Shown: positions 6,664-21,499, counted from the stretch's first letter. The stretch: 32,000 nt of DNA from Ferroglobus placidus DSM 10642 (GCF_000025505.1 NC_013849.1:690001-722000), one strand, 5' to 3'. Translations and numbers: made by a program. The notes: generated by a model not told the origin, from the letters alone.

Positions 6664-8564
6664 TCGATGAAGAAAACTCCTGAAGCGTTTTTATCTATTT
6701 TTTCCGCTATTTTCTTCACGACTTCCACGTTCGAAGCTATCCCGCTAATCTCCTTCTTTATCACTGCATCGGCAATAGCTCTCTTGAAGACTTTGCCAGC
6801 CGTCTTCGGAAGTTCCTTAACGAAAACGATGAGTCTTGGAAGAGCGATCCTTCCTATATCTTCTTCTATCTTCTTCTTAATTTTCTCAGCCAAATCATCG
6901 CTTTTTTCGGCAACGACGAAGAGTGCTATGGCTGTTCCTTTAATTCTGTCCGGCACACCAATAGCGGCGCAATCAGCCACCTCCCTCAGTTCCTTAACGA
7001 CCTTCTCTATTTCAACGAGAGAAACTCTGTGACCGCTTATGTTTATAACGTCGTCAGCTCTTCCAGAGATCCATATGTACCCGTCTTCGTCGTAGTAAGC
7101 GTAGTCTCCCGTTAAGTATACTCTCTTACCGAACTTAGACCAGTAAAGCTGCACGTAGGCTTTAGGGTCTCCGTGAATTCCGAGCATGAATCCGGGGAAC
7201 ATTTTCTTTATAACCAGATGTCCGAGCTGATAGGGCTTGGCTTTTTTCCCTCCGCTGTCGTATATGTCCACCTCTATCCCCGGCAAGGGTTTCGAAACTG
7301 AGCCGGGTTTCATGGGTGTTAAGGCTGGAATTGGAGCGATGACTATCCCTCCAGTTTCCGTCTGCCACCAAGTGTCAACTACGGGACATTTCTTTTTCCC
7401 GACTTCCTCGTAAAGCCAGAGCCAGTTTTCAGCTTCGAGGGGCTCTCCGACGCTACCTATCAACCTTAGAGTCGATAAGTCGAAGCTATCTATGTTCCCA
7501 CATCCCTGAAGCATTCTCACAAGAGTTGGAACTGTGTAAAAGACAGTAACTCCATACTTCTCTATCAACTCGAAGGTTCTGCATATGTCTGGATAGTCAG
7601 GAGCTCCTTCGTAGAGGAGAACCGTGGCACCTAAAGAAAGAGGTCCGTAAACCGAGTAGCTGTGCCCGGTGATCCAGCCGAGGTCGGCTGTGCAGAAAAG
7701 AACGTCTTCATCTTTCAGGTCGAGAACTATTTTGCTCGTCGCGTAGACGTGAACGAGGTATCCGCCAGTGGAGTGGATAATTCCCTTAGGCTCAGCAACG
7801 CTCCCAGAAGTGTAGATTATGAAGAGCGGATCGTTAGCATCTGTTATCTCGCATTCCGACTTAGCTTTCTCCTTTCTTACGAGCTCAGCATAGTCGTGAT
7901 CTCTTCCTTCTTTCATATCGATTTCGTTTCCCGCTCTCCTAACGACTACGACGTTCTCTACGCCTTTGTACTCTTCGAGAGCCTCGTCGGCTTTCTCTTT
8001 TAAGTTTATCAAATTTCCCCTTCTGTAGTATCCGTCAGCGGTTATGAGAAGCTTAACTCCTGAATCTTTCATTCTGAAAGCTGCAGATTTCGGAGAAAAT
8101 CCTGCGAATATGAAAACGTGAGTTGCCCCTATTCTCGCGGCAGCGAGCATGGAGATTACCGCTTCCGGTAAATTCGGCATGTATATTCCAACTTTGTCTC
8201 CCTTCTTTACACCAAGATTTCTCAAAGCGTTGGATAGCTTTCCTACTTCTCTGTACAAATCGAAGTACGTCAGAACTCTGTTTTCCCCCTTTTCCCCCTC
8301 CCAGATTATAGCAGCTTTGTTCCTCTTCTCTTTTAAGTGCCTGTCAACGCAGTTGTAGCTTGCGTTTATTTTTCCGTTGACGAAAAATCTGTAGTAGGGA
8401 GCCTTCGAGTCGTCGAAAAACTTCTCCCAAGGTTCAAACCAGTGCAATTCTTTGGCAAAGCTTTCCCAGTAATCTATCCAGTTCTCCTTAGCTTTCGAGT
8501 AGATAGCCGGATCTTTAACGTTCGCTTTCTCGACAAAATCTTCCGGAGGGTATATGCTCTTCAT
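6660..8564 (-). CDS. acs: Acetyl-CoA synthetase (AMP-forming)
   Basis: Motifs YTSGSVAEPKG (AMP-binding signature variant), WWQTETGG and GRADDVINISGHR. The track ORF extends to a TTG at 8624. The ATG at 8564 (MKSIYPPEDF) is preferred, with a TATA-like TCTAAATACG about 30 nt upstream. The stop overlaps the rgy stop by 4 nt. Confidence 0.93.
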   Translation of the reverse strand: MKSIYPPEDFVEKANVKDPAIYSKAKENWIDYWESFAKELHWFEPWEKFFDDSKAPYYRFFVNGKINASYNCVDRHLKEKRNKAAIIWEGEKGENRVLTYFDLYREVGKLSNALRNLGVKKGDKVGIYMPNLPEAVISMLAAARIGATHVFIFAGFSPKSAAFRMKDSGVKLLITADGYYRRGNLINLKEKADEALEEYKGVENVVVVRRAGNEIDMKEGRDHDYAELVRKEKAKSECEITDANDPLFIIYTSGSVAEPKGIIHSTGGYLVHVYATSKIVLDLKDEDVLFCTADLGWITGHSYSVYGPLSLGATVLLYEGAPDYPDICRTFELIEKYGVTVFYTVPTLVRMLQGCGNIDSFDLSTLRLIGSVGEPLEAENWLWLYEEVGKKKCPVVDTWWQTETGGIVIAPIPALTPMKPGSVSKPLPGIEVDIYDSGGKKAKPYQLGHLVIKKMFPGFMLGIHGDPKAYVQLYWSKFGKRVYLTGDYAYYDEDGYIWISGRADDVINISGHRVSLVEIEKVVKELREVADCAAIGVPDRIKGTAIALFVVAEKSDDLAEKIKKKIEEDIGRIALPRLIVFVKELPKTAGKVFKRAIADAVIKKEISGIASNVEVVKKIAEKIDKNASGVFFID

Positions 8565-8775
8565 TATAGAGGAAGTTAATCTTTTAGCGTATTTAGAGTT
8601 AACGAATTTTGCCTGAGTTTTCAAAACTCTACTGATCTTTCCCAGAATCGCTACGTGAAACGTTATGAAACTTTTTGAAGCGTTCTAAAGCCTTTTATCG
8701 CTTATCTCCATTTCGTTTTATCCCCCAACATCTATTGCCCTTCAGTTCTTACTTTCAAATCAGAGGTGATGTGAG

Positions 8776-9198
8776 ATGAAAAGAAGTTTGGTGTTTAGCA
8801 TATTGCTCGGGCTGGTGGCTCTGACAGCCTACGCATCAGCCCACGGATTTGGCATGATGGGGTACGGTATGGGTATGGGAGGTATGTACGGAGAGGATAT
8901 GATGAACTACTATAACACAGACGAAGCACAGACGGAAGTGAGCGGGAAAGTTGCGGCTGTGTACCCAATGGCAATAGTACTTGAAGATGGCAAGTACATC
9001 AGAGTTCCCTGGTGGGTTGCCGCAAATCTAGGCTTAAAGCCGGGAGATGTAGTGAAGGTCGAAGGAGTAAGCTACGGAAACGTGATAGTCCCAACGTACA
9101 TAGAAGCGAACGGTAAAACGTTCCAAAGTCCAGTTTACTACCAGAATCCGGGATACGGTTACTACTCCGGCTACCACTGCCCCATGATGGGGTGGTGA
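8776..9198 (+). CDS. Secreted Met/Gly-rich protein (putative extracytoplasmic Cu(I)/soft-metal binding)
   Basis: SD GAGGTGAT sits 6 nt upstream. Signal peptide MKRSLVFSILLGLVALTAYASA. Mature N-terminus HGFGMMGYGMGMGGMYGEDMM, central beta-rich domain, C-terminus YHCPMMGW. Confidence 0.7.
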   Translation: MKRSLVFSILLGLVALTAYASAHGFGMMGYGMGMGGMYGEDMMNYYNTDEAQTEVSGKVAAVYPMAIVLEDGKYIRVPWWVAANLGLKPGDVVKVEGVSYGNVIVPTYIEANGKTFQSPVYYQNPGYGYYSGYHCPMMGW

Positions 9199-9231
9199 TA
9201 CGATCTTCCCCAATTTTTTGGAGGTTGTGAC

Positions 9232-9480
9232 ATGATGGGATACGGTATGATGGGAGGCATGATGGGGAACAACTTCGGAGGATGGTACTTCGGCAGCTTC
9301 GTCTGGCAGATACTCTGGCTCGCGATAATAGTGGCTGTGATCTACATTCTAATGAACTCACTGAGCTCTGGAAAGAAGAGCGAAGATATGTCCCTTCAAA
9401 TCTTGAAAGAGAGGCTCGCGAGAGGAGAGATCAGCCAGGAAGAATACATCAAGTTGAAAGACGCTCTATCGAGAAGTTAA
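9232..9480 (+). CDS. SHOCT-domain membrane protein with Met/Gly-rich N-terminus
   Basis: SD GGAGGT upstream. N-terminus MMGYGMMGGMMGNNFGG, one TM segment (ILWLAIIVAVIYIL), and C-terminal ILKERLARGEISQEEYIKLKDAL, which matches the SHOCT short C-terminal domain pattern. Confidence 0.75.
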   Translation: MMGYGMMGGMMGNNFGGWYFGSFVWQILWLAIIVAVIYILMNSLSSGKKSEDMSLQILKERLARGEISQEEYIKLKDALSRS

Positions 9481-9493
9481 AGCTGTCGCAACC

Positions 9494-9518
9494 TTTTTAT
9501 ACATTTATTGTAAAATAA
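9494..9518. promoter_or_regulatory. Palindromic site A (TTTTTATACA-TTTAT-TGTAAAATAA) overlapping the TATA region upstream of the thioredoxin-like gene
   Basis: The 10-nt arms match 8/10 as an inverted repeat with a 5-nt spacer. The right arm continues as TGTAAAATAAG. The GTG start at 9523 lies 14 nt after the TGTA. Confidence 0.55.
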
Positions 9519-9522
9519 GTTC

Positions 9523-10002
9523 GTGAAAGAGAAGAGACCTCTACCAATCTTTGCGATGGCTCTCGTACTCTTCGGGGTAGCTGCGATCTTCTTTGGTGTC
9601 AACGAATACGAGGAGTATCCGATAAAATTCTACAGCCTCGAAGAGGGGTTTAAAGTTGCGAAAATGGAAAACAAGCTCGTTTTGGTTTACATCCACTCCG
9701 ATACCTGCTACGTCTGCAGAGCATTCCTTGAGGATCTATCGAAGTACGAAGATTTGCAAAAAACCTTTGAAAAGTTCGTTGTTGTCAAAGTGGACTTTCT
9801 AACTGAGAGGGCTTTAGCAGTGAAGTTCGGCGCTACTGGCACTCCCGAATTCCACGTCTTCTACCCCAACGGCACGCCGATGAAAATAAATGGGGTGAGA
9901 GCAGTTTATATCGGATACGCCGGCTCTCCGGACGATGAAAAAGCGAGAAAGTCCTTAATATCTTTTCTTGAGACCGCTTTAGAAAGCTACGACAGAAGAT
10001 GA
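9523..10002 (+). CDS. Membrane-anchored thioredoxin-fold protein (CxxC)
   Basis: N-terminal TM segment (PIFAMALVLFGVAAIFFGV). Motif VLVYIHSDTCYVCRAF (CYVC) and a cis-Pro-like GTPEFHVF. GTG start; an alternative ATG lies 11 codons downstream. Confidence 0.7.
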   Translation: MKEKRPLPIFAMALVLFGVAAIFFGVNEYEEYPIKFYSLEEGFKVAKMENKLVLVYIHSDTCYVCRAFLEDLSKYEDLQKTFEKFVVVKVDFLTERALAVKFGATGTPEFHVFYPNGTPMKINGVRAVYIGYAGSPDDEKARKSLISFLETALESYDRR

Positions 10003-10010
10003 TCGAAACA

Positions 10011-10035
10011 TTATTATACACCTAACGTAAAATAA
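10011..10035. promoter_or_regulatory. Palindromic site B (TTATTATACA-CCTAA-CGTAAAATAA) upstream of the mini-ORF/rhodanese unit
   Basis: Arms match 8/10 as an inverted repeat. Followed by GG-AG (TAAGGAG) and the ATG at 10041, 15 nt after the CGTA. Same geometry as site A. Confidence 0.55.
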
Positions 10036-10040
10036 GGAGT

Positions 10041-10106
10041 ATGAAAATCGAAAAAGTGAAGAGAGAAAAAAGAGGAGTTTGCAAGTGCCACAACTCTTGC
10101 AGCTAA
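10041..10106 (+). CDS. Candidate 21-aa Cys-rich peptide MKIEKVKREKRGVCKCHNSCS
   Basis: ATG..TAA ORF below the track's size cutoff. It sits at the same distance from palindrome B as the 9523 start does from palindrome A. AAGGAG lies immediately upstream. Basic N-terminus followed by a CxCHxxC tail. Rhodanese follows 31 nt downstream with its own strong SD. Confidence 0.35.
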   Translation: MKIEKVKREKRGVCKCHNSCS

Positions 10107-10137
10107 AATCAAATTTTTATTTTTTGGAGGTGGTTGC

Positions 10138-10533
10138 TTGTCCGGAAAGTTAATAACAGCTTTTGCTATCGGCATCGTTGCAGCGTTTCTGCTCTACAAC
10201 AGCTTCGTTCTCTTTCCAAAGGAAAAAGCCTTCAAATCTGTATCTCCTGAAGAATTTTACAAGCTAATGCAGAACGAAGAAGCTTTTGTAATAGACGTTC
10301 ACGTTCCGGAGCAGAAACATTTAAACGGAACCGATGCTTGGATACCCTACGACAGGATTGAAGAGTTCAAAGACCTCTTACCCAAAGACAAGAACACTCC
10401 CATCCTCGTTTACTGCAGATCCGGACAGATGAGTAAAATTGCCGCTTCAAAACTCGCTCAGATTGGATACAAAAACATCTACGAACTTGATGGAGGTATT
10501 TTAGCTTGGCAAAGAGCCAATCTACCTTACTGA
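10138..10533 (+). CDS. Membrane-anchored rhodanese-like sulfurtransferase domain protein
   Basis: TTG start preceded by GGAGGTGG. N-terminal TM segment (ITAFAIGIVAAFLLY). Active-site loop VYCRSGQMS and the C-terminal GGILAW typical of single-domain rhodaneses. Confidence 0.8.
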   Translation: MSGKLITAFAIGIVAAFLLYNSFVLFPKEKAFKSVSPEEFYKLMQNEEAFVIDVHVPEQKHLNGTDAWIPYDRIEEFKDLLPKDKNTPILVYCRSGQMSKIAASKLAQIGYKNIYELDGGILAWQRANLPY

Positions 10534-10534
10534 G

Positions 10535-11062
10535 CTAAACAAATCCCCACGGAGTTGAAGAGTACTTCCACACCGCTATTAAAACTGAGAAAATCAATAC
10601 CACAATTTTCAATTTTTCGTAGTCCACGAACATAACTTTGGCAAGAAAACTCGAATCTTCGAAGAGGGCATTTTTCTGTATAGTCGAGAGCATCCATACC
10701 GTCCCAACCACACTTGATAAAACGCCAATCAGAAGGAAGAACTCCGTGTACAACGTGAGAAAATAGCTTATTCCCACCCCAAGTAGAGGAACTGCATCAG
10801 TGACATGGTGGAGACAGCAAGCGACCATGCTTCCTGCTGAAATCCCTCCGGTGGCTATGCTTTTACAACTTTCACGATAGGATTTTATGTGGGTGTAGAG
10901 TGCAATCTGCAAACCAAAGCCAGCGCTGATCGGGAATACGTACATCCAGTAATTTTTTAGATTCCAAATAACTCCTTCATAACCAGCTGCGGCGTAATTC
11001 ACGAGAATATAGAAGGTAAGGAGAGAAATAAAAGCTATAAAACCATTTCTCACTTCTTTCAT
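10535..11062 (-). CDS. Polytopic membrane protein with conserved-looking CC-HH motif (function unknown; possible metal/thiol transporter)
   Basis: About 5 TM segments. Motif SAGSMVACCLHHVTDAVPLLG lies inside a TM segment. The ATG at 11062 forms an ATGA overlap with the upstream gene's stop (the track's GTG start is at 11071). The stop is 1 nt from the rhodanese stop (convergent). Confidence 0.6.
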   Translation of the reverse strand: MKEVRNGFIAFISLLTFYILVNYAAAGYEGVIWNLKNYWMYVFPISAGFGLQIALYTHIKSYRESCKSIATGGISAGSMVACCLHHVTDAVPLLGVGISYFLTLYTEFFLLIGVLSSVVGTVWMLSTIQKNALFEDSSFLAKVMFVDYEKLKIVVLIFSVLIAVWKYSSTPWGFV

Positions 11063-11490
11063 ATCTCCCACTCCAAAACCCTCTCACTCTCCAGCTTCAC
11101 AACAAGTTTGAATTTTCCAGCTCTTTCTATTTCTTTCAGCGCCTCTTCGGGAAACTCAAGAATTCCGATTCTGTGATGTCCCCAAGATTTTTCGTCTTCT
11201 TTCCAAGAAACCGGTGAAAACTTTTTTCCGCCTACCTCAAGAGTCGTTCCATTTACTATGTCGTAGATGTATAGGTCTCCGGAGTGCGTGTCGAGTCTGA
11301 AGTAAAAGGTCGGCTTCGTCAATTCTGGATACTTCGGGTTCAGGTACATGGCGGTAACCTGCACATTACCGTAACTGACCTTGACGAGATCCTCTTCTTT
11401 CAATTCCTTAGGTTTGCCGTAGAAGTTATAGAGAATCACAAACACTCCGGCAAAAATGAGAATTGCAGCAATCAACAATTTCCTGTCCAT
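11059..11490 (-). CDS. Membrane-anchored hypothetical protein (extracytoplasmic beta-rich domain, SWGHHR motif)
   Basis: 143 aa with an N-terminal TM segment (LLIAAILIFAGVFVILY). His-containing motifs LDTHSGD and SWGHHRIG. Translationally coupled to the CC-HH membrane protein. Confidence 0.6.
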   Translation of the reverse strand: MDRKLLIAAILIFAGVFVILYNFYGKPKELKEEDLVKVSYGNVQVTAMYLNPKYPELTKPTFYFRLDTHSGDLYIYDIVNGTTLEVGGKKFSPVSWKEDEKSWGHHRIGILEFPEEALKEIERAGKFKLVVKLESERVLEWEI

Positions 11491-11513
11491 GTTTTACATT
11501 TGATGTAAAATAA
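11489..11513. promoter_or_regulatory. Palindromic site C (ATGTTTTACA-TTTGA-TGTAAAATAA) between a TATA box and the start of the 143-aa gene
   Basis: The core TTTTACA-N5-TGTAAAA is a perfect 7-bp inverted repeat. The left arm overlaps the ATG (11490, minus strand). On the minus strand a TATATA box (about 11515-11520) lies just upstream, and another TGTAAAAC half-site lies at about 11527-11534. Confidence 0.6.
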
Positions 11514-11532
11514 GGTATATATCGTTTTTGTT

Positions 11533-11976
11533 TTACACTTCGTCGAAGATGCCAGTGCGACTTCCCGAGGTGTAGTATATTTTAAAGGGCTTGCTTTTAA
11601 CTCCCGGCATTCCAGGAGAGCCCGTCGGCATTCCGGGAAGGGAAATTCCTTCTATAGCTGGTTTTTCCTTTAAAAGTTTGTCTATAGCCTCTCTTGGCAC
11701 GTGTCCGATAACGTAGTAGCCCCCAATGTAAGATACGTGGCAGCTCCAGAGTTTTCTTGGGACTCCGTGTTTCTCGTAAATTTTCGTTAAGCTTTTAACG
11801 TTCACGATTTCAACTTCGTAACCTTCTCCTTCAAGGTACTCCGCATACTTCTCACAACACCCGCAAGCTTCGGGTTTGTAGATCACAACCTGCGATGGAG
11901 CGTTGCCGAAGTTTAAGTAAAGACCGAAAGCTAAAATTACTCCCAGCCCCACCACAAGAAGACTCAAAATTCTCAT
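11533..11976 (-). CDS. DUF411/CopG-family metal-binding protein (membrane-anchored)
   Basis: N-terminal TM segment. Motifs PEACGCCEKY, WSCHVSYIGGYYVIGHVP and LPGMPTGSPGMPG match the DUF411 (CopG copper-resistance) signature as I recall it. Confidence 0.8.
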   Translation of the reverse strand: MRILSLLVVGLGVILAFGLYLNFGNAPSQVVIYKPEACGCCEKYAEYLEGEGYEVEIVNVKSLTKIYEKHGVPRKLWSCHVSYIGGYYVIGHVPREAIDKLLKEKPAIEGISLPGMPTGSPGMPGVKSKPFKIYYTSGSRTGIFDEV

Positions 11977-12003
11977 GGAGAGAGGCGGTCGAAAAAGTAT
12001 AAG

Positions 12004-12028
12004 TATTTTTTCATTAGGTGTAAAATAT
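12004..12028. promoter_or_regulatory. Palindromic site D (TATTTTTTCA-TTAGG-TGTAAAATAT) in the 50-bp divergent region between DUF411 and the methyltransferase
   Basis: Weaker inverted repeat (6/10). Read on the minus strand it gives TTTTACA-CCTAA-TGAAAAA, sharing ACACCTAA with site B. The right arm overlaps the ATG at 12027. Confidence 0.45.
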
Positions 12029-12638
12029 GGTGAAAAAGGGATTGGATAAGAAAAGGTACGATAGAGTTGCTAAATTTTACGATATCTTTGAGTCTCCCAT
12101 GGAACTCTTGGCTTTTTCCTCTTGGAGAAGGGAACTTACGAAAAATGTCGAAGGTAACCTCGTCCTTGAAGTGGGAATCGGAACCGGAAAAAATATACCA
12201 TACTACAAAAACTGGGAGGTAGTTGGAGTTGACATAAGCAGAAGGATGCTGGAAAGAGCCGTAAAGAGGGTTAAAGAGAACAAAAAAGTTGTTCATCTGA
12301 TCCAAGCTGACGCTGAAAGTTTACCTTTCAAGGATGGTGTTTTCGACGCAATCATATCCACCTACGTTTTTTGTTCCGTGGAGAATCCGATAAACGGGCT
12401 CAGAGAACTCCACAGAGTTCTGAAGAAAGGTGGCAAAGCGTATTTTCTCGAACACATGAGGAGCGAAAGTGAATTCGTCGGAAAAATTCTCGACATCCTA
12501 AACCCCCTCTTCAGAAAGCTCGGTCCGGAGATAAACAGGAGAACTGCAGAGAATATAAAGAAAGCTGGATTCAAAATAGTTGAGGAGAGGCACTTAATGA
12601 CGTCTATTTTCAGAATGATAGTGGCTGAAAAAAGTTAG
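12027..12638 (+). CDS. Class I SAM-dependent methyltransferase
   Basis: Motif I VLEVGIGTGKN, post-I VVGVDIS, and FDAIISTYVF plus LKKGGKAYFLEH, typical of the Methyltransf_11/25 fold. Confidence 0.85.
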   Translation: MVKKGLDKKRYDRVAKFYDIFESPMELLAFSSWRRELTKNVEGNLVLEVGIGTGKNIPYYKNWEVVGVDISRRMLERAVKRVKENKKVVHLIQADAESLPFKDGVFDAIISTYVFCSVENPINGLRELHRVLKKGGKAYFLEHMRSESEFVGKILDILNPLFRKLGPEINRRTAENIKKAGFKIVEERHLMTSIFRMIVAEKS

Positions 12639-13630
12639 TTGAGGAGGAGACGTCTTATCAGCTCCTCCACCTTTCCTTCAATAACCTTACAAAGCTTTAA
12701 AGCATCTTCGTAGCTATTCGGAGTGGAAAGTTTCCAAACCTCGTCAACTCTCCGAACATCGACGCTTTCATCAAGAGAAATTACGTAGTCCGCATCTTCA
12801 AGCATCTCTTCTGTTAGCTTTTTCGGCTTTGTCAGCTTGACTCCACGCTTTTTTGCGAACTCTACCGCAACCTCGCTAAGACTCTTCGAAGGAGAAGTCC
12901 CGTAGCTGATAGCGTGCATGTTGTCCGGAGATATTTTATTGAAAACGTACTCAGCTATCTTCGTTCTCAAATCGTTCTTAACGGAAACGAAAAACACCCT
13001 TTTCGTTGACGTTAACTTTCTGTATTTGCCTATGGACTCTGGAACTTCAGGCTTTAACTTGAATTTTCCTATCTCAACACTGCCTACGTCTATAAACCTG
13101 AGCTCAAGTTTAACCGCTTCTTCATCAAACTCTACTACGTTGTAACTGTTGTCCGGCATCAGAACTTTGTAAGAGCTGAGAGAGCCAGCATGAATTACGT
13201 GGGTTCTCAGGAGTTTTGTGGAGTAGGGAACATGCCTGTGACCGGCTAAAACCACTCCTCCGCTACAGTGAAATGCCATAGCTTCAACCATTTCTGCTGC
13301 GTCGATCAGAACGTTCATATTTCTCCCGGTGTGGGGAATCGGAACGAGGTGGTGATGCATGACGACTATGTTTATGCAGTTTTTCCTGACATTTGAAAGT
13401 ATCCACTCTCTCTGCTCGTCCCCCACGTATCCCTCGTCGGAGTCTGGAAGGGTGCTGTCCACTCCTATAAAGACCGCATTATCAACCTTCACCCTCTTTC
13501 TCGTCCTTCCAAAGTACAGCCTGAAGTACTTCAATCCGTCGTTTCTCGCATCGTGATTGCCGGGAACGGCGAGAATCTCAGACTTTATACCAGAAAGCGT
13601 TTCATAAGCATCTCTAAACTCGTGATGCAC
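12635..13630 (-). CDS. Metallophosphoesterase (motifs III-V only) fused to a C-terminal LMW-PTP/ArsC-like domain with Ser replacing the nucleophilic Cys; distal part of a TGA-interrupted gene
   Basis: Track ORF with a GTG start. Motifs VPGNHD, VVMHHH and LAGHRHVP. The C-terminal VFFVSVKNDLRT aligns to the V-C-x-G-N-x-C-R-S P-loop with C->S. The upstream 43 codons, which are in frame, carry the missing DVH and GD motifs. Confidence 0.75.
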   Translation of the reverse strand: MHHEFRDAYETLSGIKSEILAVPGNHDARNDGLKYFRLYFGRTRKRVKVDNAVFIGVDSTLPDSDEGYVGDEQREWILSNVRKNCINIVVMHHHLVPIPHTGRNMNVLIDAAEMVEAMAFHCSGGVVLAGHRHVPYSTKLLRTHVIHAGSLSSYKVLMPDNSYNVVEFDEEAVKLELRFIDVGSVEIGKFKLKPEVPESIGKYRKLTSTKRVFFVSVKNDLRTKIAEYVFNKISPDNMHAISYGTSPSKSLSEVAVEFAKKRGVKLTKPKKLTEEMLEDADYVISLDESVDVRRVDEVWKLSTPNSYEDALKLCKVIEGKVEELIRRLLLN

Positions 13631-13633
13631 TCC

Positions 13634-13765
13634 TCACAGTCCGATATCTCCGGTTAAAACGACCAAGTCCGGCTCGATTTCGTTTATCTGTTTTATAGCC
13701 TTCTCAACCTTGTCCTTCAGCAGCTCAAAGCCGAAATGAACATCCGATATGTGGACGATTTTCAT
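13634..13765 (-). pseudogene. N-terminal fragment of the same metallophosphoesterase, ending at an in-frame TGA (13636..13634)
   Basis: The minus strand reads ATG(13765) MKIVHISDVHFGFELLKDKVEKAIKQINEIEPDLVVLTGDIGL-TGA-G-V(GTG 13630)HHEF. This fragment holds metal-binding motifs I (DVH) and II (GD) and is in frame with ORF 12635..13630. Confidence 0.7.
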
Positions 13766-13809
13766 AAAATAAATCGTGATGAATGCCGTTTTAGAATTTC
13801 GGTTGGAAT

Positions 13810-13822
13810 AAAAATTAAAAAA
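13810..13822 (-). terminator. Oligo-T tracts (archaeal-type terminator signal) after the PEF-CTERM protein gene
   Basis: The minus strand reads TAA-AAAAAATTAAATTTTTTAATTTTTATTCC. T6 and T5 runs lie within 25 nt of the stop. Confidence 0.35.
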
Positions 13823-13832
13823 TTTAATTTTT

Positions 13833-15368
13833 TTACCTCATCATTCTACCCGCAACCAAGGCAGTTATAACGACAGCTATGCCCATCCACACCCCCGAAA
13901 ACTCCGGAATAGAAGTTTGATCCGGAAGAGGGGTTAAAGTAGGCGTTTGAATTGGTGTTGGCGTTCCACCTGCTTGAAGAGGACAGATCGCGTTCGAAAT
14001 CGGAGAAATTCCGGATGTTTGAAGATCTAAGGAGTTTACGTTGATTCCAGCCGGTTGAAGGAGGGGTGCTGGAGCGAACACGTATTCGTCAAATCCAGCT
14101 TCACCGATTTGGGCGTTTGCAACGATTTCGTAAAGGCAAAGACCAGTGACGCTCCCGTAGTCGTTAAGCTTGAGAATCCAGAAGTCCGAGTCGCTCGAGA
14201 AGGATCTCGTGTTTGACGCAACAACGTAGCCGTCGTCGGCTTTTTTAACATCCGCCGCCCAGTCACTTTTGTCACCGCCGTATCTCTTCTGCCACTGAAT
14301 CAATCCGCTGCCGTCAATTTTGAAAATCCAAACGTCTCCTGCTGCGCTCCCAGCTACGACATAGCCATCGTTCACCTTCTGAATTGAGGAGATTTTTTCA
14401 TAGGTACTTTCATTGTACGTTCTCTGCCACCGTATGTGTCCGCTGTTATCGATCTTTAAGATCCAAGACTCGTAGACATTCGGAGAGAGAACGCCGGCAC
14501 TTCTGCTCGTTCCAGCTACAACGTACCCATCATCAGCTTGCTGGAGGGAAGAAAACTCATCAACGACTTTCCAGTCGTATATCCCCTCCCACTCGACAAA
14601 ACCCGAACTGTTAAGCTTTACCATCCAGAGATTCGAACGGTAGGGGTTTGGAAATGAGATAACATTGTAATCGGCTGCAACTCCGGCTACTATATACCCT
14701 CCATCGCCAGTTTGCTGGATGGAGTAAGCTTTATCTCTGTTATACATATCGAGCACTTTTTCCCACATCACATTGCCGTTGGCATCGAGCTTTAAAATCC
14801 AGATGTTGTACTCTATCTCCCGCAATGGATCGGATGGAATTGTAGTGTATCCAGCCACTACGTAGCCGCCGTCACTCGTTTGCCGAATGGAATGGAATGC
14901 GTTCTCCTGAATTGGCTCATCATCAACGTTTTTATCGTATTTTTTAGCCCAGAGGACGTTTCCATACTCGTCAACTTTCATAACGAGTCCGTAGAAAATA
15001 TCAAACTGAGTTCGAGAGCCGCTATAACTCTTCGAACCCGCTTTTCCGGCAATTACGTATCCATCGCTCACTTTCTGAATCGAATACGCGTAATCGTCAA
15101 GAGGTGAGCCATAACTTTTCTCCCATACAACGTTCCCCTCACCATCAAGCTTCACGATCCAGATGTCCGTATCTCCAAGCGAGTCCGTCCAGCCAGCTAC
15201 GACGTAACCGTCGTCAGTTCGCTGGATTGCATAGGCTGTCTCATTACCCTCTCCTCCATAGATTTTTGCCCATTCTGCCTGAACTGGAGTCAGTAGGCAG
15301 AACAGAGCAGCTACCGCTAAAAACAAAATTCTCAATTCAACCACCTTAATTAAATTATTTTTTCTCAA
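13833..15368 (-). CDS. Secreted seven-repeat (beta-propeller-like) surface protein with Thr/Pro linker and PEF-CTERM archaeosortase sorting signal
   Basis: Signal peptide (LFLAVAALFCLLTPVQA). Seven tandem units of about 50-60 aa of the form [AF]YSIQ.T.DGGYVVAG.T...(D/N).W(I/M).K(L/I)D..G.v.W(E/Q)K.Y. The C-terminus is GGTPTPIQTPTLTPLPDQTSIPEFSGVWMGIAVVITALVAGRMMR. The start is uncertain (TTG at 15368 or GTG 8 codons downstream). Confidence 0.8.
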   Translation of the reverse strand: MRKNNLIKVVELRILFLAVAALFCLLTPVQAEWAKIYGGEGNETAYAIQRTDDGYVVAGWTDSLGDTDIWIVKLDGEGNVVWEKSYGSPLDDYAYSIQKVSDGYVIAGKAGSKSYSGSRTQFDIFYGLVMKVDEYGNVLWAKKYDKNVDDEPIQENAFHSIRQTSDGGYVVAGYTTIPSDPLREIEYNIWILKLDANGNVMWEKVLDMYNRDKAYSIQQTGDGGYIVAGVAADYNVISFPNPYRSNLWMVKLNSSGFVEWEGIYDWKVVDEFSSLQQADDGYVVAGTSRSAGVLSPNVYESWILKIDNSGHIRWQRTYNESTYEKISSIQKVNDGYVVAGSAAGDVWIFKIDGSGLIQWQKRYGGDKSDWAADVKKADDGYVVASNTRSFSSDSDFWILKLNDYGSVTGLCLYEIVANAQIGEAGFDEYVFAPAPLLQPAGINVNSLDLQTSGISPISNAICPLQAGGTPTPIQTPTLTPLPDQTSIPEFSGVWMGIAVVITALVAGRMMR

Positions 15369-16985: not shown

Positions 16986-17423
16986 ATGAAGTGTATTTGT
17001 GGAGTGGATGGTTGGAAAGTCAAGAAAATAACCGTAGGAAATCACCTCAATCCGGAGTACTGGCATTTGCTCAGCGATGACTTTTACTTCTGCCCAAATT
17101 CGGAGTGCGACGTAGTGTACTTCGATGGTAGAGCAATCTTCACAACTAAAGAAGTTAAAACAAAGGTCTTTTTCAAAGAAAAAGGTTCTCCAAAGCCTTT
17201 ATGCTACTGCAAGCAGGTTACAGAAGAGGACGTCATTGAGGCGATAAAGAGAGGAGCTAAGAGCGTTGAAGAAGTGGAAGAAATAACCGGCATAGGAAAC
17301 GGGGGACACTGCGTAATTACAAATCCGTCAGGCAGATGCTGCAAGCTGTATTACGAAGGATTTATCGAGGACTTGCTTGGGAAAAAAGATAGAGACGAAT
17401 GTCGGGAGTGCTGCGAATCCTGA
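16986..17423 (+). CDS. Cys-rich BFD-like [2Fe-2S]/Zn-binding protein resembling the N-terminal domain of Archaeoglobus CopZ (putative Fe-S metallochaperone)
   Basis: MKCICG...GW.V..ITVG.H, DFYFCPNSECDVVYF, PKPLCYCKQVTEEDVIEAIKRGAKSVEEVEEITGIGNGGHCVITNPSGRCC (BFD-like [2Fe-2S] pattern), and a C-terminal tail DECRECCES. No HMA domain is present. Confidence 0.6.
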   Translation: MKCICGVDGWKVKKITVGNHLNPEYWHLLSDDFYFCPNSECDVVYFDGRAIFTTKEVKTKVFFKEKGSPKPLCYCKQVTEEDVIEAIKRGAKSVEEVEEITGIGNGGHCVITNPSGRCCKLYYEGFIEDLLGKKDRDECRECCES

Positions 17424-17918
17424 CTACTTCAGCTGCTTTAAGTACTCTATCAGATCGTTCAAATCCTTTTCCGTCATCTGCCACCTCGGCATGCACCAGT
17501 TCAACTCCTCTCCCTCATCTCCAATCCCAGAAGTTATAGCTCTCTTTACGTCCTCTTCGCTCATTCCGTGTTCTCCGGAGAGGGTGGAATACCTTATATC
17601 CGGAGTTTTTACACCACACATCATCGGGTAAATTCCTCCCTTCCCGTCAACACCGTGACAGCTCGCACAACCTCCTCCGTGCATCTGAAGCCAAGTTGGT
17701 CCGCCAACAAAAGGTATTCTTTCACCTTTTTCGTTAACTCCGGTGAGAAAAATTTTCTCTCCGTTCGACCTATACTCTCCCACCGGCTGATAGATATTCC
17801 TGTCTCCAAACTGCATGTAGGGCGTTCCACCAAACCAAAACACGTTAGCAGCGATAAATCCCGCGGCAAAAGCTGCTATCGCGACCGCGACAACGATTAT
17901 CGTTTCTCTTGTTTTCAT
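17424..17918 (-). CDS. Membrane-anchored monoheme c-type cytochrome
   Basis: Single CASCH heme-binding motif and an N-terminal TM segment (IIVVAVAIAAFAAGFIAANVF). The ATG at 17918 (MKTRETII) is preferred, because the track start at 18002 would overlap the upstream gene. The stop abuts the stop of ORF 16986..17423. Confidence 0.75.
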   Translation of the reverse strand: MKTRETIIVVAVAIAAFAAGFIAANVFWFGGTPYMQFGDRNIYQPVGEYRSNGEKIFLTGVNEKGERIPFVGGPTWLQMHGGGCASCHGVDGKGGIYPMMCGVKTPDIRYSTLSGEHGMSEEDVKRAITSGIGDEGEELNWCMPRWQMTEKDLNDLIEYLKQLK

Positions 17919-17944
17919 AAATGTTTCTTTTTTACAAAAACTAC

Positions 17945-18454
17945 TTAACGTTTTCCCATATTCAAACAAACATGCCTGAAAGAGCACAATTTTGCAGAGC
18001 ATTTCCTGGGAAAATCCGGCTTGTTTTCAAGAAACCAGCTGAAGTACTCCAGACTTTTTTCGTAAAGTTCCTCATCAAACTCAAAAGACTTCATTTGGGC
18101 TCCGTCTCCGTGAAATTTAACGAGAATACCTTTCTCAACATCGAATATTTTCATGTAGAGATTTAGCTGAGCGATCCACTCAATCGGAAAATTCCTCGAA
18201 GAATTCTTCACCTCTATGACGCACTTCTCCGTTAAAAAATCCGCCTTTCCGACCACAGAAAAGTTTTCAAGCTCCATTTTGCCTTTAGGTTGCTTAACGT
18301 ATTTAACTCCGACTAATTTCAAAAACTCCTCAAACTTCCTTTCAGCCTCAAAACCCTTCCTAACGACCTTCGAAGGAGCTTCGAGCTCCGGATAGTTCAT
18401 TTTGAGGTAAACCCACACCCTGCACCTGAAAACCCAAGAGGCGAAAAATTCCAT
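17945..18454 (-). CDS. Cas4-like/DUF83 PD-(D/E)xK nuclease with four-Cys Fe-S cluster pattern (stand-alone)
   Basis: N-terminal FRCRVW (Cys1). Nuclease core GKADFL...VIEVKNS (D...EVK) and QLNLY (QxxxY). C-terminal CSAKLCSFRHVC. 169 aa. Confidence 0.6.
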   Translation of the reverse strand: MEFFASWVFRCRVWVYLKMNYPELEAPSKVVRKGFEAERKFEEFLKLVGVKYVKQPKGKMELENFSVVGKADFLTEKCVIEVKNSSRNFPIEWIAQLNLYMKIFDVEKGILVKFHGDGAQMKSFEFDEELYEKSLEYFSWFLENKPDFPRKCSAKLCSFRHVCLNMGKR

Positions 18455-20947: not shown

Positions 20948-21499
20948 ATGGTCAAGATTTACGTCGTCTACAACTACGGGCAGTACAATCACCTCATCCA
21001 CAGAACTCTAAGAGACTTGGGAGTCGAAACCAAACTGATTCAAAACACAACTCCAGTAGAGGAAATCGACGCTGACGGACTTGTTTTAGGAGGAGGTCCG
21101 TCTTTGGAGAGAACTGGCAATTGCGAGGAGTACGTGAGAAAACTCGACATACCGATTCTCGGCATATGCCTCGGACATCAGCTCATAGCAAAAGTTTTCG
21201 GAGGAGAAGTGGGAAGAGGAAAAACTGGTGGTTATGCGGAAGTAGAGGTTGAGATAGTGGATAAAGATGAGCTGTTCGAAGGTTTTCCGGAGAGGATAAA
21301 AGTTTGGGCAAGCCACATGGACGAGGTTAAAAAGCTGCCGAAAGACTTCAAAGTTCTTGCGAAGTCTGATATATGCGAAATAGAGGCGATGAGACACAAA
21401 AAGAAGCCTATATTTGGCGTGCAGTGGCACCCGGAAGTTTACCACTCGGAGTACGGAGTAGAACTCTACAAAAACTTCGTTGAGATCTGCAAAAGATGA
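20948..21499 (+). CDS. guaA: GMP synthase (glutamine-hydrolysing) subunit A, class I glutamine amidotransferase
   Basis: 183 aa. Motifs GICLGHQ (nucleophile Cys) and VQWHPE (His/Glu of the triad). The size matches the split archaeal GuaAA subunit. Confidence 0.9.

What the first reader, a model, noticed from the sequence alone, without database searches (positions are those of the whole stretch)
8776..11976. Convergent eight-gene cluster of small envelope-facing Met/Cys/His-rich proteins: candidate undescribed archaeal copper/thiol-handling module without ATPase or regulator
Seen in sequence: two arms converge with their stops 1 nt apart (10533/10535).

Plus arm:
- A signal-peptide protein with HGFGMMGYGMGMGGMYGEDMM and C-terminal HCPMMGW.
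- A SHOCT membrane protein starting MMGYGMMGGMMG. The same Met-Gly module recurs at the DNA level in both genes.
- A TM-anchored thioredoxin-fold protein (CYVC).
- A 21-aa CxCHxxC peptide.
- A TM-anchored rhodanese (CRSGQMS).

Minus arm:
- A DUF411/CopG-type protein (CGCC, GHVP, LPGMPTGSPGMPG).
- A TM-anchored 143-aa protein (SWGHHR), ATGA-coupled to the next gene.
- A polytopic membrane protein with an intramembrane ACCLHH.

Established knowledge: Met-rich motifs and DUF411/CopG are associated with Cu(I) handling in bacteria, and rhodanese and thioredoxin folds mediate sulfur and thiol transfer.

Inference: nearly every product is secreted or anchored by a single TM segment, which points to an extracytoplasmic Cu(I)/thiol-redox or sulfur-transfer relay. 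There is no CopA-type P1B ATPase, HMA chaperone or transcription factor in the cluster. I do not know of a described system with this gene combination.
Basis: partly seen in the sequence, partly recalled or inferred. Interest (0 to 1): 0.72.

Follow-up and report, generated by a model that had tools for sequence, protein, structure and literature searches.

The report
Copper-handling envelope cluster, unnamed membrane core
The cluster is real and conserved: it combines a CopG copper protein, methionine-rich surface proteins, a thioredoxin and a rhodanese around an unnamed two-part membrane protein that occurs in about 500 archaeal and bacterial species, usually beside copper pumps, so it is probably a new piece of copper-handling machinery.

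Summary
Seven of the eight ORFs are real genes with the stated motifs and domains. The 21-aa peptide is unresolved. An adjacent SAM methyltransferase (12027-12638) is co-conserved and probably belongs to the cluster.

The core is the ATGA-coupled pair G (143 aa) and F (175 aa). Neither matches any Pfam or NCBIfam model. Elsewhere the two are usually fused into one protein of about 300 aa: five TM helices with an invariant intramembrane M-x2-CC-x-H(H) motif, plus an outward-facing His-bearing beta-sandwich.

A profile search found 2,706 cluster representatives, and a motif scan found relatives in 506 species genomes of archaea and bacteria. All that carry a name are called 'hypothetical'. Some carry cytoplasmic HMA or YHS domains at the N-terminus.

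In 78 loci, 45 have a P1B ATPase, DUF411, YHS or ArsR gene within 8 kb. Most of the ATPases carry the Cu(I) signature.

The copper or soft-metal reading is therefore supported, and the family appears undescribed. It is not specific to archaea, and it is not intrinsically free of an ATPase or regulator. A link to cytochrome c maturation genes in 10 loci keeps a thiol-redox rival alive. No function has been tested experimentally.

The parts
8776..9198 (+). A: secreted 140-aa protein. Signal peptide ending ASA|H, a disordered Met/Gly/Tyr-rich stretch, an OB-fold core, and a conserved C-terminal HCPMMGW.
   Evidence: ORF. No Pfam or NCBIfam match. The 14-member family alignment shows invariant S21, A22 and P136-M137-M138-G139, and near-invariant H23. 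In the AF2 model the core (residues 50-118) has pLDDT about 90 with the beta1-3/helix/beta4-5 order, and the tails are below 50. Foldseek returns only generic OB folds, all with E >= 0.014, and CusF is not among the top 50. Conserved in L012 and in Geoglobus L006.
9232..9480 (+). B: 82-aa protein. Met-Gly tail (inferred to face outward), one TM helix, and a SHOCT domain (inferred cytoplasmic).
   Evidence: SHOCT PF09851 at 6.9e-8, 32.4 bits against a cut-off of 27. TM at residues 23-41, no K/R before it and 8 K/R after it. The Met/Gly-rich stretch plus TM (with or without SHOCT) architecture recurs in 11 of 78 F loci.
9523..10002 (+). C: TM-anchored thioredoxin-fold protein with CYVC (CxxC).
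   Evidence: Thioredoxin_2, _7 and Thioredoxin at about 3e-8, above the cut-offs. Weak match to the C-terminal thioredoxin domain of DsbD, NF001419 positions 465-552. Homologues lie next to G-F in Geoglobus L006 (58% identity) and in L043.
10041..10106 (+). D: 21-aa ORF MKIEKVKREKRGVCKCHNSCS. Status unresolved.
   Evidence: AAGGAG lies 5 nt upstream of the ATG. The ORF and its Cys motif are retained in Ferroglobus MAG L015, but the flanking intergenic DNA is equally conserved and the SD-like site is not. There is no counterpart in L016 or L006, where gene order differs.
10138..10533 (+). E: TM-anchored single-domain rhodanese with active-site loop CRSGQMS.
   Evidence: Rhodanese PF00581 at 5.5e-15. 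Best NCBIfam match is GlpE-type, below the cut-off. A tight CRSGxMS subfamily (E 1e-33 to 1e-52) lies near F in 9 loci from Archaeoglobi, DPANN, Saccharibacteria and Spirochaetes.
10535..11062 (-). F: 175-aa polytopic membrane protein (5 helices in the model of a fused relative) with the motif SAGSMVACCLHHVTDxxP in the third helix. This is the membrane half of the core unit.
   Evidence: No Pfam or NCBIfam match. M79, C82, C83 and H85 are invariant and H86 is near-invariant across 102 diverse members. AF2 model of fused relative P0019: mean pLDDT 86.5, five TM helices, with the CC pair about 10 residues into helix 80-102, i.e. mid-membrane. 2,706 representatives at E <= 1e-3. Relatives in 506 species genomes.
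11059..11490 (-). G: 143-aa TM-anchored beta-sandwich with invariant LDTHSGDLY and SW.HH motifs. This is the outward-facing half of the core unit and is ATGA-coupled to F.
   Evidence: No Pfam or NCBIfam match. Invariant D67, T68, H69, H105, H106, W96 and W103. Fused to the C-terminus of F in P0016 and P0019 and in most top profile hits. The G domain is present in 70 of 78 F loci. Beta-sandwich with pLDDT above 90. Best PDB fold matches are weak: DUF4426 3uc2 (1.2e-3) and H. pylori copper-resistance protein CrdA 9ll2 (3.1e-3, target-normalised TM 0.62).
11533..11976 (-). H: TM-anchored CopG/DUF411 protein with CGCC, SCH, GHVP and GMPTGSPGM.
   Evidence: DUF411 at 4.2e-23. PDB 6WIS (P. aeruginosa CopG) at 5.2e-18 over residues 28-128, with the metal-cluster motifs aligned. 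DUF411 lies within 8 kb of F in 14 of 78 loci.
12027..12638 (+). MT: cytoplasmic class I SAM methyltransferase, divergent from H with a 50-nt gap. Probably part of the module. Substrate unknown.
   Evidence: Methyltransf_11 at 9.7e-26. Best NCBIfam match is the MenG/UbiE subfamily, 96.9 bits against a cut-off of 158, so it is not an equivalog of any named enzyme. Homologues lie next to the G-F pair in L012 (67% identity), L008 (61%) and L013 (56%), with a distant one (25%) near F in L010. Present in 20 of 78 loci overall. A membrane methyltransferase of a different fold (PEMT/ICMT) is fused to F in P0090 and adjacent in 5 loci.
17424..18002 (-). Possibly linked: TM-anchored monohaem cytochrome c, 5.4 kb from the cluster.
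   Evidence: Cytochrom_C at 1.7e-9. It belongs to the same sequence cluster as cytochromes c within the gene neighbourhood of the cluster: directly beside MT-DUF411-G-F in Geoglobus L019 and L020, a few genes upstream of MT-G-F in L021, and directly after F-G in DPANN L078.
16986..17423 (+). Possibly linked: homologue of the N-terminal Zn/[2Fe-2S] domain of Archaeoglobus CopZ, without an HMA domain.
   Evidence: zf_CopZ at 1.6e-15 plus Fer2_BFD at 6.6e-9. PDB 2HU9 at 6.2e-35.

Best explanation
This is a conserved cell-envelope module for handling a thiophilic metal, most probably Cu(I).

Shown:
- The cluster is conserved.
- H is a CopG-family protein with its copper-cluster motifs intact.
- G and F are two halves of one protein family, usually fused. 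The family has an invariant intramembrane Met-x2-Cys-Cys-x-His(His) site and an extracytoplasmic beta-sandwich bearing conserved His residues.
- That family lives mainly in copper or heavy-metal gene neighbourhoods and sometimes carries cytoplasmic HMA or YHS metal-binding domains.

Inferred mechanism:
1. Cu(I) at the cell surface is caught by the thioether-rich tails of A and B and by CopG (H).
2. The His site of G receives the metal and passes it to the Met/Cys/His site in the middle of F.
3. F conducts it across the membrane without ATP, to or from a cytoplasmic acceptor. That acceptor is an HMA or YHS domain in fused relatives. The logic matches CopC/CopD or MerP/MerT.
4. The anchored thioredoxin (C) and rhodanese (E) keep the exposed cysteines of CopG and F reduced or free of adducts.

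The direction of transport, the metal specificity, and the roles of the methyltransferase and of peptide D are not established.
For: Conservation:
- The layout MT | H-G-F | x-E-B-A recurs in L012/L016, where F is 64% identical. G-F | C-E-A' recurs in Geoglobus acetivorans in an unrelated genomic context.

G and F as one unit:
- They are ATGA-coupled here.
- They are fused in P0016 and P0019 and in most of the top 150 profile hits.
- The G domain is present in 70 of 78 F loci.

Intramembrane site:
- M79, C82, C83 and H85 are invariant over 102 diverse members.
- They lie mid-helix in a confident model, pLDDT 86.5.

Cytoplasmic metal-binding fusions at the N-terminus, none with a signal peptide:
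- 2x HMA in P0075, and YHS/TRASH in P0093, P0131, P0180 and P0167.
- An extra TM helix after the G domain in P0044 and P0099 places G outside.

Neighbourhood census of 78 loci from both domains:
- P1B ATPase 28, membrane-anchored MarR 22, DUF411 14, ArsR 10, YHS 9, DUF302 11, DUF5676 10, PadR-TRASH 7, Lrp-TRASH 6.
- 45 of 78 loci have at least one of P1B, DUF411, YHS or ArsR.
- 16 of 21 near-full-length neighbouring ATPases carry the full Cu(I) signature CPC + NX6YNX4P + MXXSS.

Other points:
- H matches CopG 6WIS at 5e-18 with CxCC and the Met motif. CopG binds a tetranuclear Cu cluster and contributes to anaerobic Cu resistance (PMC7558416, citing Hausrath 2020).
- The best fold matches of G include the H. 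pylori copper-resistance protein CrdA, but weakly.
- SHOCT and DUF302 genes have been noted beside archaeal copper islands (PMC5498576). A SHOCT membrane protein was silver-induced in Haloferax (PMC10694973).
- Established knowledge: vicinal Cys pairs in TM helices are the Hg(II)-conducting sites of MerT and MerF, and CPC plus Met forms the Cu(I) sites of CopA.
Against: - There is no experimental datum for any member of the F, G or A families.
- No coordinates were available to check the geometry of the proposed sites.
- The fold matches of G are weak (E about 1e-3), and the membrane domain has no structural relative in the PDB.
- 27 of 78 loci show neither metal nor Ccm markers, although several of those contigs are short.
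- 10 loci place F-G directly beside CcmH/F/E/G. Those genes concern haem and thiols, not copper.
- Two neighbouring ATPases are of the Zn/Cd/Pb type and two are CPH type, so the metal may differ between lineages.
- This window has no copper ATPase, HMA chaperone or metal regulator.
- The recurring methyltransferases (20 loci, plus ICMT-type in 5 loci and one fusion) have no role in the model.
- A is a generic OB fold, not detectably CusF-like.
Confidence: 0.55

Rival explanations
1. Thiol-redox or cytochrome c maturation accessory. F-G would be a transmembrane conduit of reducing power, or a haem/thiol-handling factor, that serves extracytoplasmic thiol proteins: thioredoxin C, rhodanese E, the cysteines of CopG, and CcmH/CcmG. 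It would not transport a metal.
For: In 10 of 78 loci from five lineages, F-G is co-directional with and adjacent to Ccm genes. Examples are G>F>CcmH>CcmF>CcmH in Archaeoglobi L013, L021 and L022 (50-nt gap in L013), and F>G>CcmH>CcmG-like redoxin>CcmE>CcmF in Nitrospirota L074 and L086. None of those loci shows a CcdA within 8 kb. In this window a DsbD-gamma-like thioredoxin and a rhodanese converge on F. Ferroglobus and Geoglobus are rich in c-type cytochromes (PMC8280799).
Against: - F has no match to DsbD_TM, VKOR or DsbB models.
- Known conduits use two cysteines on separate helices or CxxC, not a vicinal CC flanked by Met and His.
- 14 of 78 F loci already contain a CcdA/DsbD-family protein, usually paired with a rhodanese or redoxin. 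F is therefore not simply its substitute.
- Many hosts are DPANN or CPR organisms. To my knowledge these generally lack c-type cytochromes, yet they keep F-G beside CopA-type pumps.
- HMA and YHS fusions point to metal ions.
- The Ccm adjacency can also be read as protection: c-type cytochrome assembly is a key periplasmic target of copper (PMC4600104).
Confidence: 0.2
2. The same kind of module, but for another thiophilic metal or metalloid (Hg, Ag, Cd/Zn/Pb, As/Sb, Se/Te). The methyltransferase would act on the metal(loid) or on a thiol ligand.
For: - A vicinal CC in a TM helix is the MerT/MerF signature (established knowledge).
- Methyltransferases of two different folds are linked to F: class I in 20 loci, ICMT/PEMT in 5 loci and one fusion.
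- ArsR regulators occur in 10 loci. Two neighbouring ATPases are Zn/Cd/Pb type.
- YHS fused to a pyridine-nucleotide disulfide oxidoreductase occurs in 4 loci, which recalls the MerA architecture.
- MT has weak similarity to ArsM-type models.
Against: - No MerA, MerB, MerP, MerR or ArsB/Acr3 family emerged among the recurrent neighbour clusters.
- No mer or ars HMM hit any cluster protein.
- MT has a single Cys and scores far below the ArsM cut-offs (40 to 54 bits against 240 to 575).
- 16 to 18 of 21 neighbouring ATPases are Cu(I)-type.
- CopG and Lrp-TRASH regulators are copper-associated.
Confidence: 0.15
3. Oxidant defence. The Met-rich A and B would act as sacrificial sinks for reactive oxygen or chlorine species, serviced by the thioredoxin, as with the periplasmic methionine-rich peptide of perchlorate reducers.
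For: Met-rich secreted or anchored proteins lie next to an extracytoplasmic thioredoxin. The precedent is cited in PMC9751292 (its ref. 53, Melnyk 2015).
Against: - There is no methionine sulfoxide reductase (MsrA/B/P) in the cluster or among the recurrent neighbours.
- The closest relatives of the host are strict anaerobes of hydrothermal systems.
- This reading explains neither CopG, nor F-G, nor the metal-pump neighbourhoods.
Confidence: 0.03
4. Chance juxtaposition of unrelated small membrane-protein genes.
For: The two arms are separate transcription units. A, B and C are conserved only within Archaeoglobaceae.
Against: - The same combination recurs at 64% identity, and partly in Geoglobus in different flanks.
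- G and F exist as fusions.
- Rhodanese, DUF411, SHOCT and MT recur with F across phyla.
Confidence: 0.02

Closest known systems
CopC/CopD (PcoC/PcoD; Bacillus YcnJ CopC-CopD fusion) copper uptake or handling pair
   Same: An extracytoplasmic beta-sandwich with His ligands is coupled, or fused, to a polytopic membrane protein. It is encoded in copper clusters, has no ATPase domain, and occurs both as separate genes and as fusions.
   Different: There is no sequence match to the CopC or CopD Pfam models. F has 5 helices and an intramembrane CC-x-HH site, whereas to my knowledge CopD is larger and has no such motif. The conserved DTH...HH motifs of G are not the CopC His-brace site.
MerT/MerP (and MerF, MerC) mercury uptake
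   Same: A vicinal Cys-Cys sits in a transmembrane helix as the presumed metal-conducting site. There is a partner extracytoplasmic metal-binding domain, hand-off to a cytoplasmic HMA domain in some relatives, and no energy-coupling domain.
   Different: No mer HMM hit. There is no MerA, MerR or MerB in any of 78 neighbourhoods. The CC lies in helix 3 and is flanked by Met and His-His. The outer partner is a beta-sandwich, not an HMA fold. The neighbours are Cu(I) pumps.
CopG (DUF411), PDB 6WIS
   Same: H is a member. It aligns over about 100 residues at 5e-18 and keeps CxCC, SCH, GHVP and GMPxGSPGM.
   Different: H is anchored by an N-terminal TM helix in an archaeon with no outer membrane. 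It is not next to CopA, Cus or a multicopper oxidase, but next to G-F and a methyltransferase.
Archaeal cop clusters (Lrp/TRASH regulator, HMA/TRASH chaperone, CopA ATPase; 'copper fitness islands' with SHOCT and DUF302, PMC5498576)
   Same: Relatives of F-G sit inside exactly such islands with Cu(I) ATPases, TRASH regulators, SHOCT and DUF302.
   Different: The window's cluster lacks the pump, the chaperone and the regulator. F, G and A are not part of the described cop sets.
CcdA/DsbD with CcmG/ResA: the thiol-reduction arm of cytochrome c maturation
   Same: A membrane protein with essential cysteines is encoded beside extracytoplasmic thioredoxin-like proteins and, in 10 loci, beside CcmH/F/E.
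   Different: There is no homology to DsbD_TM. The cysteines are vicinal and come with Met and His. F co-occurs with genuine CcdA-family genes in 14 loci.

Membership tests
CopG / DUF411 (protein H) | Match to PF04214 above the gathering score | tested here: met
   81.2 bits against 27, E 4.2e-23
CopG / DUF411 (protein H) | CxCC motif and adjacent Met residues that ligate the tetranuclear Cu cluster | tested here: met
   CGCC and GMPTGSPGM align with the same motifs of 6WIS. Role of the motifs as summarised in PMC7558416.
CopG / DUF411 (protein H) | Binds a Cu4 cluster and contributes to copper resistance | not testable with these tools
   Needs metal analysis and genetics.
Rhodanese sulfurtransferase (protein E) | PF00581 above the cut-off, with a catalytic Cys in a six-residue loop | tested here: met
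   56.1 bits against 22.2. The loop is CRSGQMS.
Thioredoxin superfamily (protein C) | Thioredoxin-like Pfam match above the cut-off, with a CxxC motif | tested here: met
   Thioredoxin_2 at 34.5 bits and Thioredoxin_7 at 33.9 bits, both against 27. The motif is CYVC.
SHOCT (protein B) | PF09851 above the cut-off at the C-terminus | tested here: met
   32.4 bits against 27, residues 55-79.
mer operon (MerT/MerP/MerA) for F-G | Sequence membership in MerT, MerC or MerF, and the presence of MerA/MerR nearby | tested here: not met
   No Pfam or NCBIfam mer hit. No MerA or MerR cluster among the recurrent neighbours of 78 loci.
CopC/CopD for G/F | Match to the CopC or CopD models | tested here: not met
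   No hit at E <= 1 for G or F, and none for fused relatives.
CcdA/DsbD for F | Match to DsbD_TM, with two Cys on separate helices in PCxxP-like motifs | tested here: not met
   No DsbD_TM hit for F. The cysteines are vicinal. Genuine DsbD_TM proteins are separate genes in 14 loci.
System I cytochrome c maturation (Ccm) | Cluster proteins match the CcmA-H models | tested here: not met
   No Ccm hit for any of the eight products. There is adjacency to Ccm genes in 10 of 78 related loci only.
CusF-like OB-fold Cu(I) chaperone (protein A) | Structural similarity to CusF, with its His/Met/Met/Trp site | tested here: inconclusive
   The core is an OB fold, but CusF is not among the top 50 Foldseek matches and all matches have E >= 0.014. 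The Met-rich parts are disordered.
Arsenite methyltransferase ArsM (MT) | Score above the ArsM model cut-offs, and the conserved Cys residues | tested here: not met
   40 to 54 bits against cut-offs of 240 to 575. The protein has a single Cys.

The most novel reading that the evidence does not exclude
G-F (and its fused form) would be the founding example of an unrecognised, widely distributed family of ATP-independent Cu(I) or soft-metal membrane conductors. The family has an intramembrane Met/Cys-Cys/His-His site fed by an external His-bearing beta-sandwich.

In anaerobic hyperthermophiles it would work with CopG, Met-rich surface proteins, a dedicated rhodanese/thioredoxin pair and possibly a monohaem cytochrome c. 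Together they would form a self-contained, oxygen-independent envelope copper detoxification or supply pathway that also shields cytochrome c maturation.
Probability: 0.35. Interest if true: 0.78.

Novelty: new variant of a known kind. Interest (0 to 1): 0.62.

Why it matters
Copper handling at the cell envelope is well described for aerobic Gram-negative bacteria (CopA, Cus, CueO, CopC/D). It is poorly understood for anaerobes, archaea and the small-genome DPANN and CPR lineages, which cannot use oxygen-dependent copper oxidases.

This work points to a family with no Pfam or NCBIfam model, found in about 500 species genomes and 2,700 sequence clusters. It sits beside copper pumps and has a striking invariant intramembrane Cys-Cys-His site.

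If it conducts Cu(I), it adds a new transporter class. It would also give a concrete handle on how anaerobes protect thiol-dependent envelope processes, such as cytochrome c maturation, from copper.

The Rosetta-stone fusions (G with F, HMA or YHS with F, ICMT with F) make the hypotheses directly testable.

Tried and rejected
- Word-index homologue searches gave only 19 (F), 18 (G) and 13 (A) relatives and suggested tiny Archaeoglobales-only families. The exhaustive profile search overturned this for F-G.
- Pfam and NCBIfam scans of F, G, A, the fused relatives and several recurrent neighbours (c6, c9, c19, c31, c32, c33) gave nothing.
- Profile searches of PDB sequences with the F-G and A alignments gave nothing below E 0.1.
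- Foldseek against the PDB gave only weak beta-sandwich matches for G, none for the membrane domain, and generic OB folds for A.
- My first neighbour cluster labelled 'rhodanese' (24 loci) proved to be a mixture with TlpA/AhpC-like redoxins. An HMM recount gave 12 loci, 9 of them of the CRSGxMS subfamily.
- I considered F as a CcdA substitute and down-weighted the idea, because genuine CcdA-family genes co-occur with F.
- I considered ArsM or MenG identity for the methyltransferase. All scores are below the cut-offs.
- Literature searches found no description of the F or G family.
- The Hausrath 2020 CopG paper itself is not held in the library, so I cited it through the review PMC7558416.
- The source organism could not be named with certainty. 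The closest labelled genome is a Ferroglobus sp. MAG, with F at 94% identity.

Full report
**1. Observation**

The ORF list for 7000-14000 contains all eight ORFs at the coordinates given. The plus arm is A 8776-9198, B 9232-9480, C 9523-10002, D 10041-10106 and E 10138-10533. The minus arm is H 11533-11976, G 11059-11490 and F 10535-11062 (or 11071 from an upstream GTG). E and F end one base apart. G's stop and F's ATG overlap as ATGA, and the same 4-nt overlap is seen in relatives.

Pfam places four proteins above the curated cut-offs:
- B in SHOCT.
- C in the thioredoxin-like families.
- E in Rhodanese.
- H in DUF411.

A, F and G match nothing in Pfam or NCBIfam. The Met-Gly module recurs at the DNA level, 27 nt at 85% identity, although codon constraints explain much of that. 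Hydropathy gives one N-terminal hydrophobic segment in A, C, E, G and H, and a central one in B with all K/R residues on its C-terminal side. The envelope-facing topology is a sound inference. It has not been measured.

**2. Setting**

The window encodes reverse gyrase, so the host is a hyperthermophile. It holds no P-type ATPase, no HMA protein and no metal regulator anywhere in its 32 kb. The closest labelled genome is a Ferroglobus sp. MAG, with F at 94% identity. Exact copies of the cluster occur in five independent read-set assemblies.

**3. Conservation**

- In an uncultured archaeon (L012/L016, F 64% identical) the layout is methyltransferase | DUF411-G-F | (154-aa protein)-rhodanese-SHOCT-A.
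- In Geoglobus acetivorans, in unrelated flanks, it is G-F | thioredoxin-rhodanese-A'.
- Other Archaeoglobi have MarR-methyltransferase | G-F, or MarR | DUF411-x-methyltransferase-G-F-CcmH-CcmF-CcmH.

The class I SAM methyltransferase at 12027-12638 is divergent from H across 50 nt. It is therefore part of the conserved set. Peptide D is not. It has a good Shine-Dalgarno-like site and survives in the nearest MAG, but so does the surrounding non-coding DNA, and it is absent in more distant clusters.

**4. The core is one protein in two pieces**

Aligning F relatives showed that two of them (P0016, P0019) carry a C-terminal domain that is plainly G, with ...DTHQG... and ...GGHHR.G.L.FP. I used a combined F+G profile to search 1.84 billion cluster representatives. 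It found 2,706 proteins at E <= 1e-3 and 218 at E <= 1e-30. Most top hits are fused proteins of about 300 aa that cover the whole profile.

A motif-seeded scan of one genome per species found relatives in 506 species. These include Archaeoglobi, DPANN lineages, Thaumarchaeota, Hydrothermarchaeota, Methanosarcinales, Nitrospirota, Chloroflexi, CPR, Spirochaetes, Clostridia and Bacteroidetes. None of twenty tested members matches a Pfam or NCBIfam family in the F or G part. Public sources call them 'hypothetical protein'.

Across 102 diverse members, M79, C82, C83 and H85 are invariant. S75, H86, P92, Q52 and several glycines are nearly so. In G, D67-T68-H69, H105-H106, W96 and W103 are invariant.

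An AlphaFold model of the fused P0019 (mean pLDDT 86.5) has five TM helices and a beta-sandwich. The CC pair lies about ten residues into the third helix, which puts it mid-membrane.

Foldseek against the PDB gives only weak matches for the sandwich:
- DUF4426 3uc2, E 1.2e-3.
- The H. pylori copper-resistance protein CrdA 9ll2, E 3.1e-3.
- Nothing for the membrane part.

Profile searches of PDB sequences are also empty.

**5. What the family keeps company with**

Some fused members have extra N-terminal domains, none with a signal peptide:
- Two HMA domains (P0075).
- YHS/TRASH (P0093, P0131, P0180, P0167).
- A PEMT/ICMT-type membrane methyltransferase (P0090).

This puts the N-terminus of F in the cytoplasm and G outside. 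The extra TM helix after G in P0044 and P0099 agrees with that.

I then clustered all ORFs from 85 loci without reference to annotation, and named the recurrent clusters afterwards. Within 8 kb of F, out of 78 loci where F was recovered, the counts were:

| Neighbour | Loci |
|---|---|
| G domain | 70 |
| P1B ATPase | 28 |
| Membrane-anchored MarR | 22 |
| Methyltransferase | 20 |
| DUF411 | 14 |
| CcdA/DsbD family, often with a CC variant | 14 |
| DUF302 | 11 |
| Met-Gly/SHOCT proteins | 11 |
| ArsR | 10 |
| DUF5676 | 10 |
| Ccm genes | 10 |
| YHS proteins | 9 |
| CRSGxMS rhodanese | 9 |
| PadR-TRASH regulators | 7 |
| Lrp-TRASH regulators | 6 |

Forty-five loci have at least one of P1B, DUF411, YHS or ArsR. 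Of 21 near-full-length neighbouring ATPases, 16 carry the full Cu(I) signature (CPC, NX6YNX4P, MXXSS). Two are Zn/Cd/Pb type and two are CPH type.

**6. The other members**

- **H** aligns with P. aeruginosa CopG (6WIS) at 5e-18 with the CxCC and Met motifs. CopG binds a tetranuclear copper cluster and helps anaerobic copper resistance (PMC7558416).
- **A** belongs to a small family with a conserved ASA|H cleavage context, a disordered Met/Gly/Tyr region, an OB-fold core (pLDDT about 90) and a conserved C-terminal HCPMMGW. The fold search finds only generic OB folds.
- **B** shares its architecture, a Met/Gly-rich stretch followed by a TM helix and often a SHOCT domain, with larger proteins in many of the metal islands. 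SHOCT and DUF302 genes beside archaeal copper islands have been noted (PMC5498576). A SHOCT membrane protein was silver-induced in Haloferax (PMC10694973).
- **E** belongs to a tight rhodanese subfamily that travels with these islands across phyla.
- **Possibly linked genes.** A monohaem cytochrome c 5.4 kb away (17424-18002) belongs to the same family as cytochromes encoded in the neighbourhood of the cluster in Geoglobus, another Archaeoglobus and a DPANN genome. Beside it is a homologue of the CopZ N-terminal domain (2HU9, 6e-35).

**7. Mechanism**

Shown:
- The cluster is conserved.
- G and F form one unit.
- The unit has an invariant intramembrane Met/Cys-Cys/His site and an external His-bearing sandwich.
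- Some members carry cytoplasmic metal-domain fusions.
- The neighbourhoods are dominated by copper genes.
- H has a bona fide CopG.

Inferred:
- Cu(I) is captured by the Met-rich tails of A and B and by CopG.
- It is passed to G and then to the site in F.
- F conducts it across the membrane without ATP, to or from a cytoplasmic acceptor, as in CopC/CopD or MerP/MerT.
- C and E keep the exposed thiols serviceable.

I put 0.55 on this soft-metal, most probably copper, handling model. The direction of transport and the role of the methyltransferase remain open.

**8. Rivals**

The strongest rival is a thiol-redox or cytochrome c maturation role (0.2). F-G heads or abuts ccm genes in 10 loci from five lineages, and a DsbD-gamma-like thioredoxin faces it here.

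Against that rival:
- F is not DsbD-like.
- Its cysteines are vicinal and are flanked by Met and His.
- Genuine CcdA-family genes co-occur with it in 14 loci.
- Many hosts are DPANN or CPR organisms, which to my knowledge generally lack c-type cytochromes.
- The adjacency fits the finding that cytochrome c assembly is a prime periplasmic target of copper (PMC4600104).

A different thiophilic metal or metalloid, possibly with methylation, gets 0.15. There are no mer or ars genes among the recurrent neighbours, and the methyltransferase fails the ArsM cut-offs. Oxidant scavenging and chance juxtaposition are very unlikely.

**9. Novelty and verdict**

The cluster is a copper or heavy-metal homeostasis cluster in kind. 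Its core, the F-G family, and protein A are unannotated and, as far as the searched literature goes, undescribed. I classify it as a new variant of a known kind.

It was right about copper/thiol handling and about the lack of a described system. It was wrong to treat G and F as separate curiosities, to call the system archaeal, and to treat the absence of an ATPase and regulator as intrinsic to it.

Noticed in passing
window 12635-13765 (-), stop at 13634-13636: A metallophosphoesterase fused to an LMW phosphatase/ArsC-like domain is interrupted by an in-frame TGA (…LTGDIGL*GVHHEF…), between the conserved GD motif and the rest of the enzyme. Gene callers split it into 43 aa + 331 aa in four assemblies of the same organism. 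It could be a pseudogene, a recoded codon or a strain-specific nonsense mutation.
   Followed up: partly
window 16986-17423 (+): A 145-aa homologue of the N-terminal Zn/[2Fe-2S] domain of Archaeoglobus fulgidus CopZ (PDB 2HU9, 6e-35). It lacks the C-terminal HMA domain and lies tail-to-tail with a cytochrome c gene.
   Followed up: partly
window 17424-18002 (-); L019, L020, L021, L078: This TM-anchored monohaem cytochrome c belongs to a small family found in the neighbourhood of the cluster elsewhere: directly beside MT-DUF411-G-F in Geoglobus (L019, L020), a few genes upstream in L021, and directly after F-G in DPANN L078. It may be an anaerobic redox partner for CopG.
   Followed up: partly
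L024, L026, L053, L071, L080, L083, L039, L027: DPANN archaea share a longer conserved operon: membrane-anchored MarR, a Cys/His-rich 236-aa protein (c6), DUF5676, small peptides ending in MVGGC, a YHS protein ending in SGCCH, an HCPLC membrane protein (c9), a helical protein ending in CCKE (c19), then fused F-G. A Cu(I) ATPase and ArsR often follow. Most of these families have no Pfam model.
   Followed up: partly
L033, L046, L047, L060, L064, L069, L075, L077, L090: Rhodanese or redoxin genes are paired with a CcdA/DsbD-family membrane protein in which each canonical single Cys is replaced by a vicinal CC (FAPCCI…, SACCAPVL). The CC variant falls below the Pfam DsbD_TM threshold but clusters with canonical CcdA.
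   Followed up: partly
L061, L064, L068, L081: A YHS domain is fused to a pyridine-nucleotide disulfide oxidoreductase of the thioredoxin-reductase type, next to F-G. A 61-aa His/Gly-rich peptide ending in GHGCCG lies after F-G in a partly overlapping set of loci (L052, L068, L081, L087). The architecture recalls MerA (metal-binding domain plus flavin disulfide reductase).
   Followed up: no
P0090, P0199; L030, L043, L046, L075: PEMT/ICMT-type membrane methyltransferases are fused to or adjacent to F. Separately, the class I methyltransferase is found in 20 loci. Two unrelated methyltransferase folds are thus linked to the same membrane protein.
   Followed up: partly
window 13833-15368 (-): A 511-aa secreted protein built of repeated 'DGGY/DDGYV…W' units, with a Thr/Pro-rich linker and a C-terminal hydrophobic anchor. 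Pfam gives only a sub-threshold arylsulfotransferase (beta-propeller) hit.
   Followed up: no
window 6660-8624 (-) and L001 13414-15317: The acetyl-CoA synthetase gene beside the cluster is intact here (654 aa from a TTG start). In one assembly of the same organism it is called as two ORFs (451 + 180 aa), which is probably an assembly or sequencing frameshift.
   Followed up: no
window 21496-22068 (+): This MFS transporter ORF is only 190 aa, about half the normal length. Its 3' end overlaps the convergent diaminopimelate/ornithine decarboxylase gene. It may be truncated.
   Followed up: no
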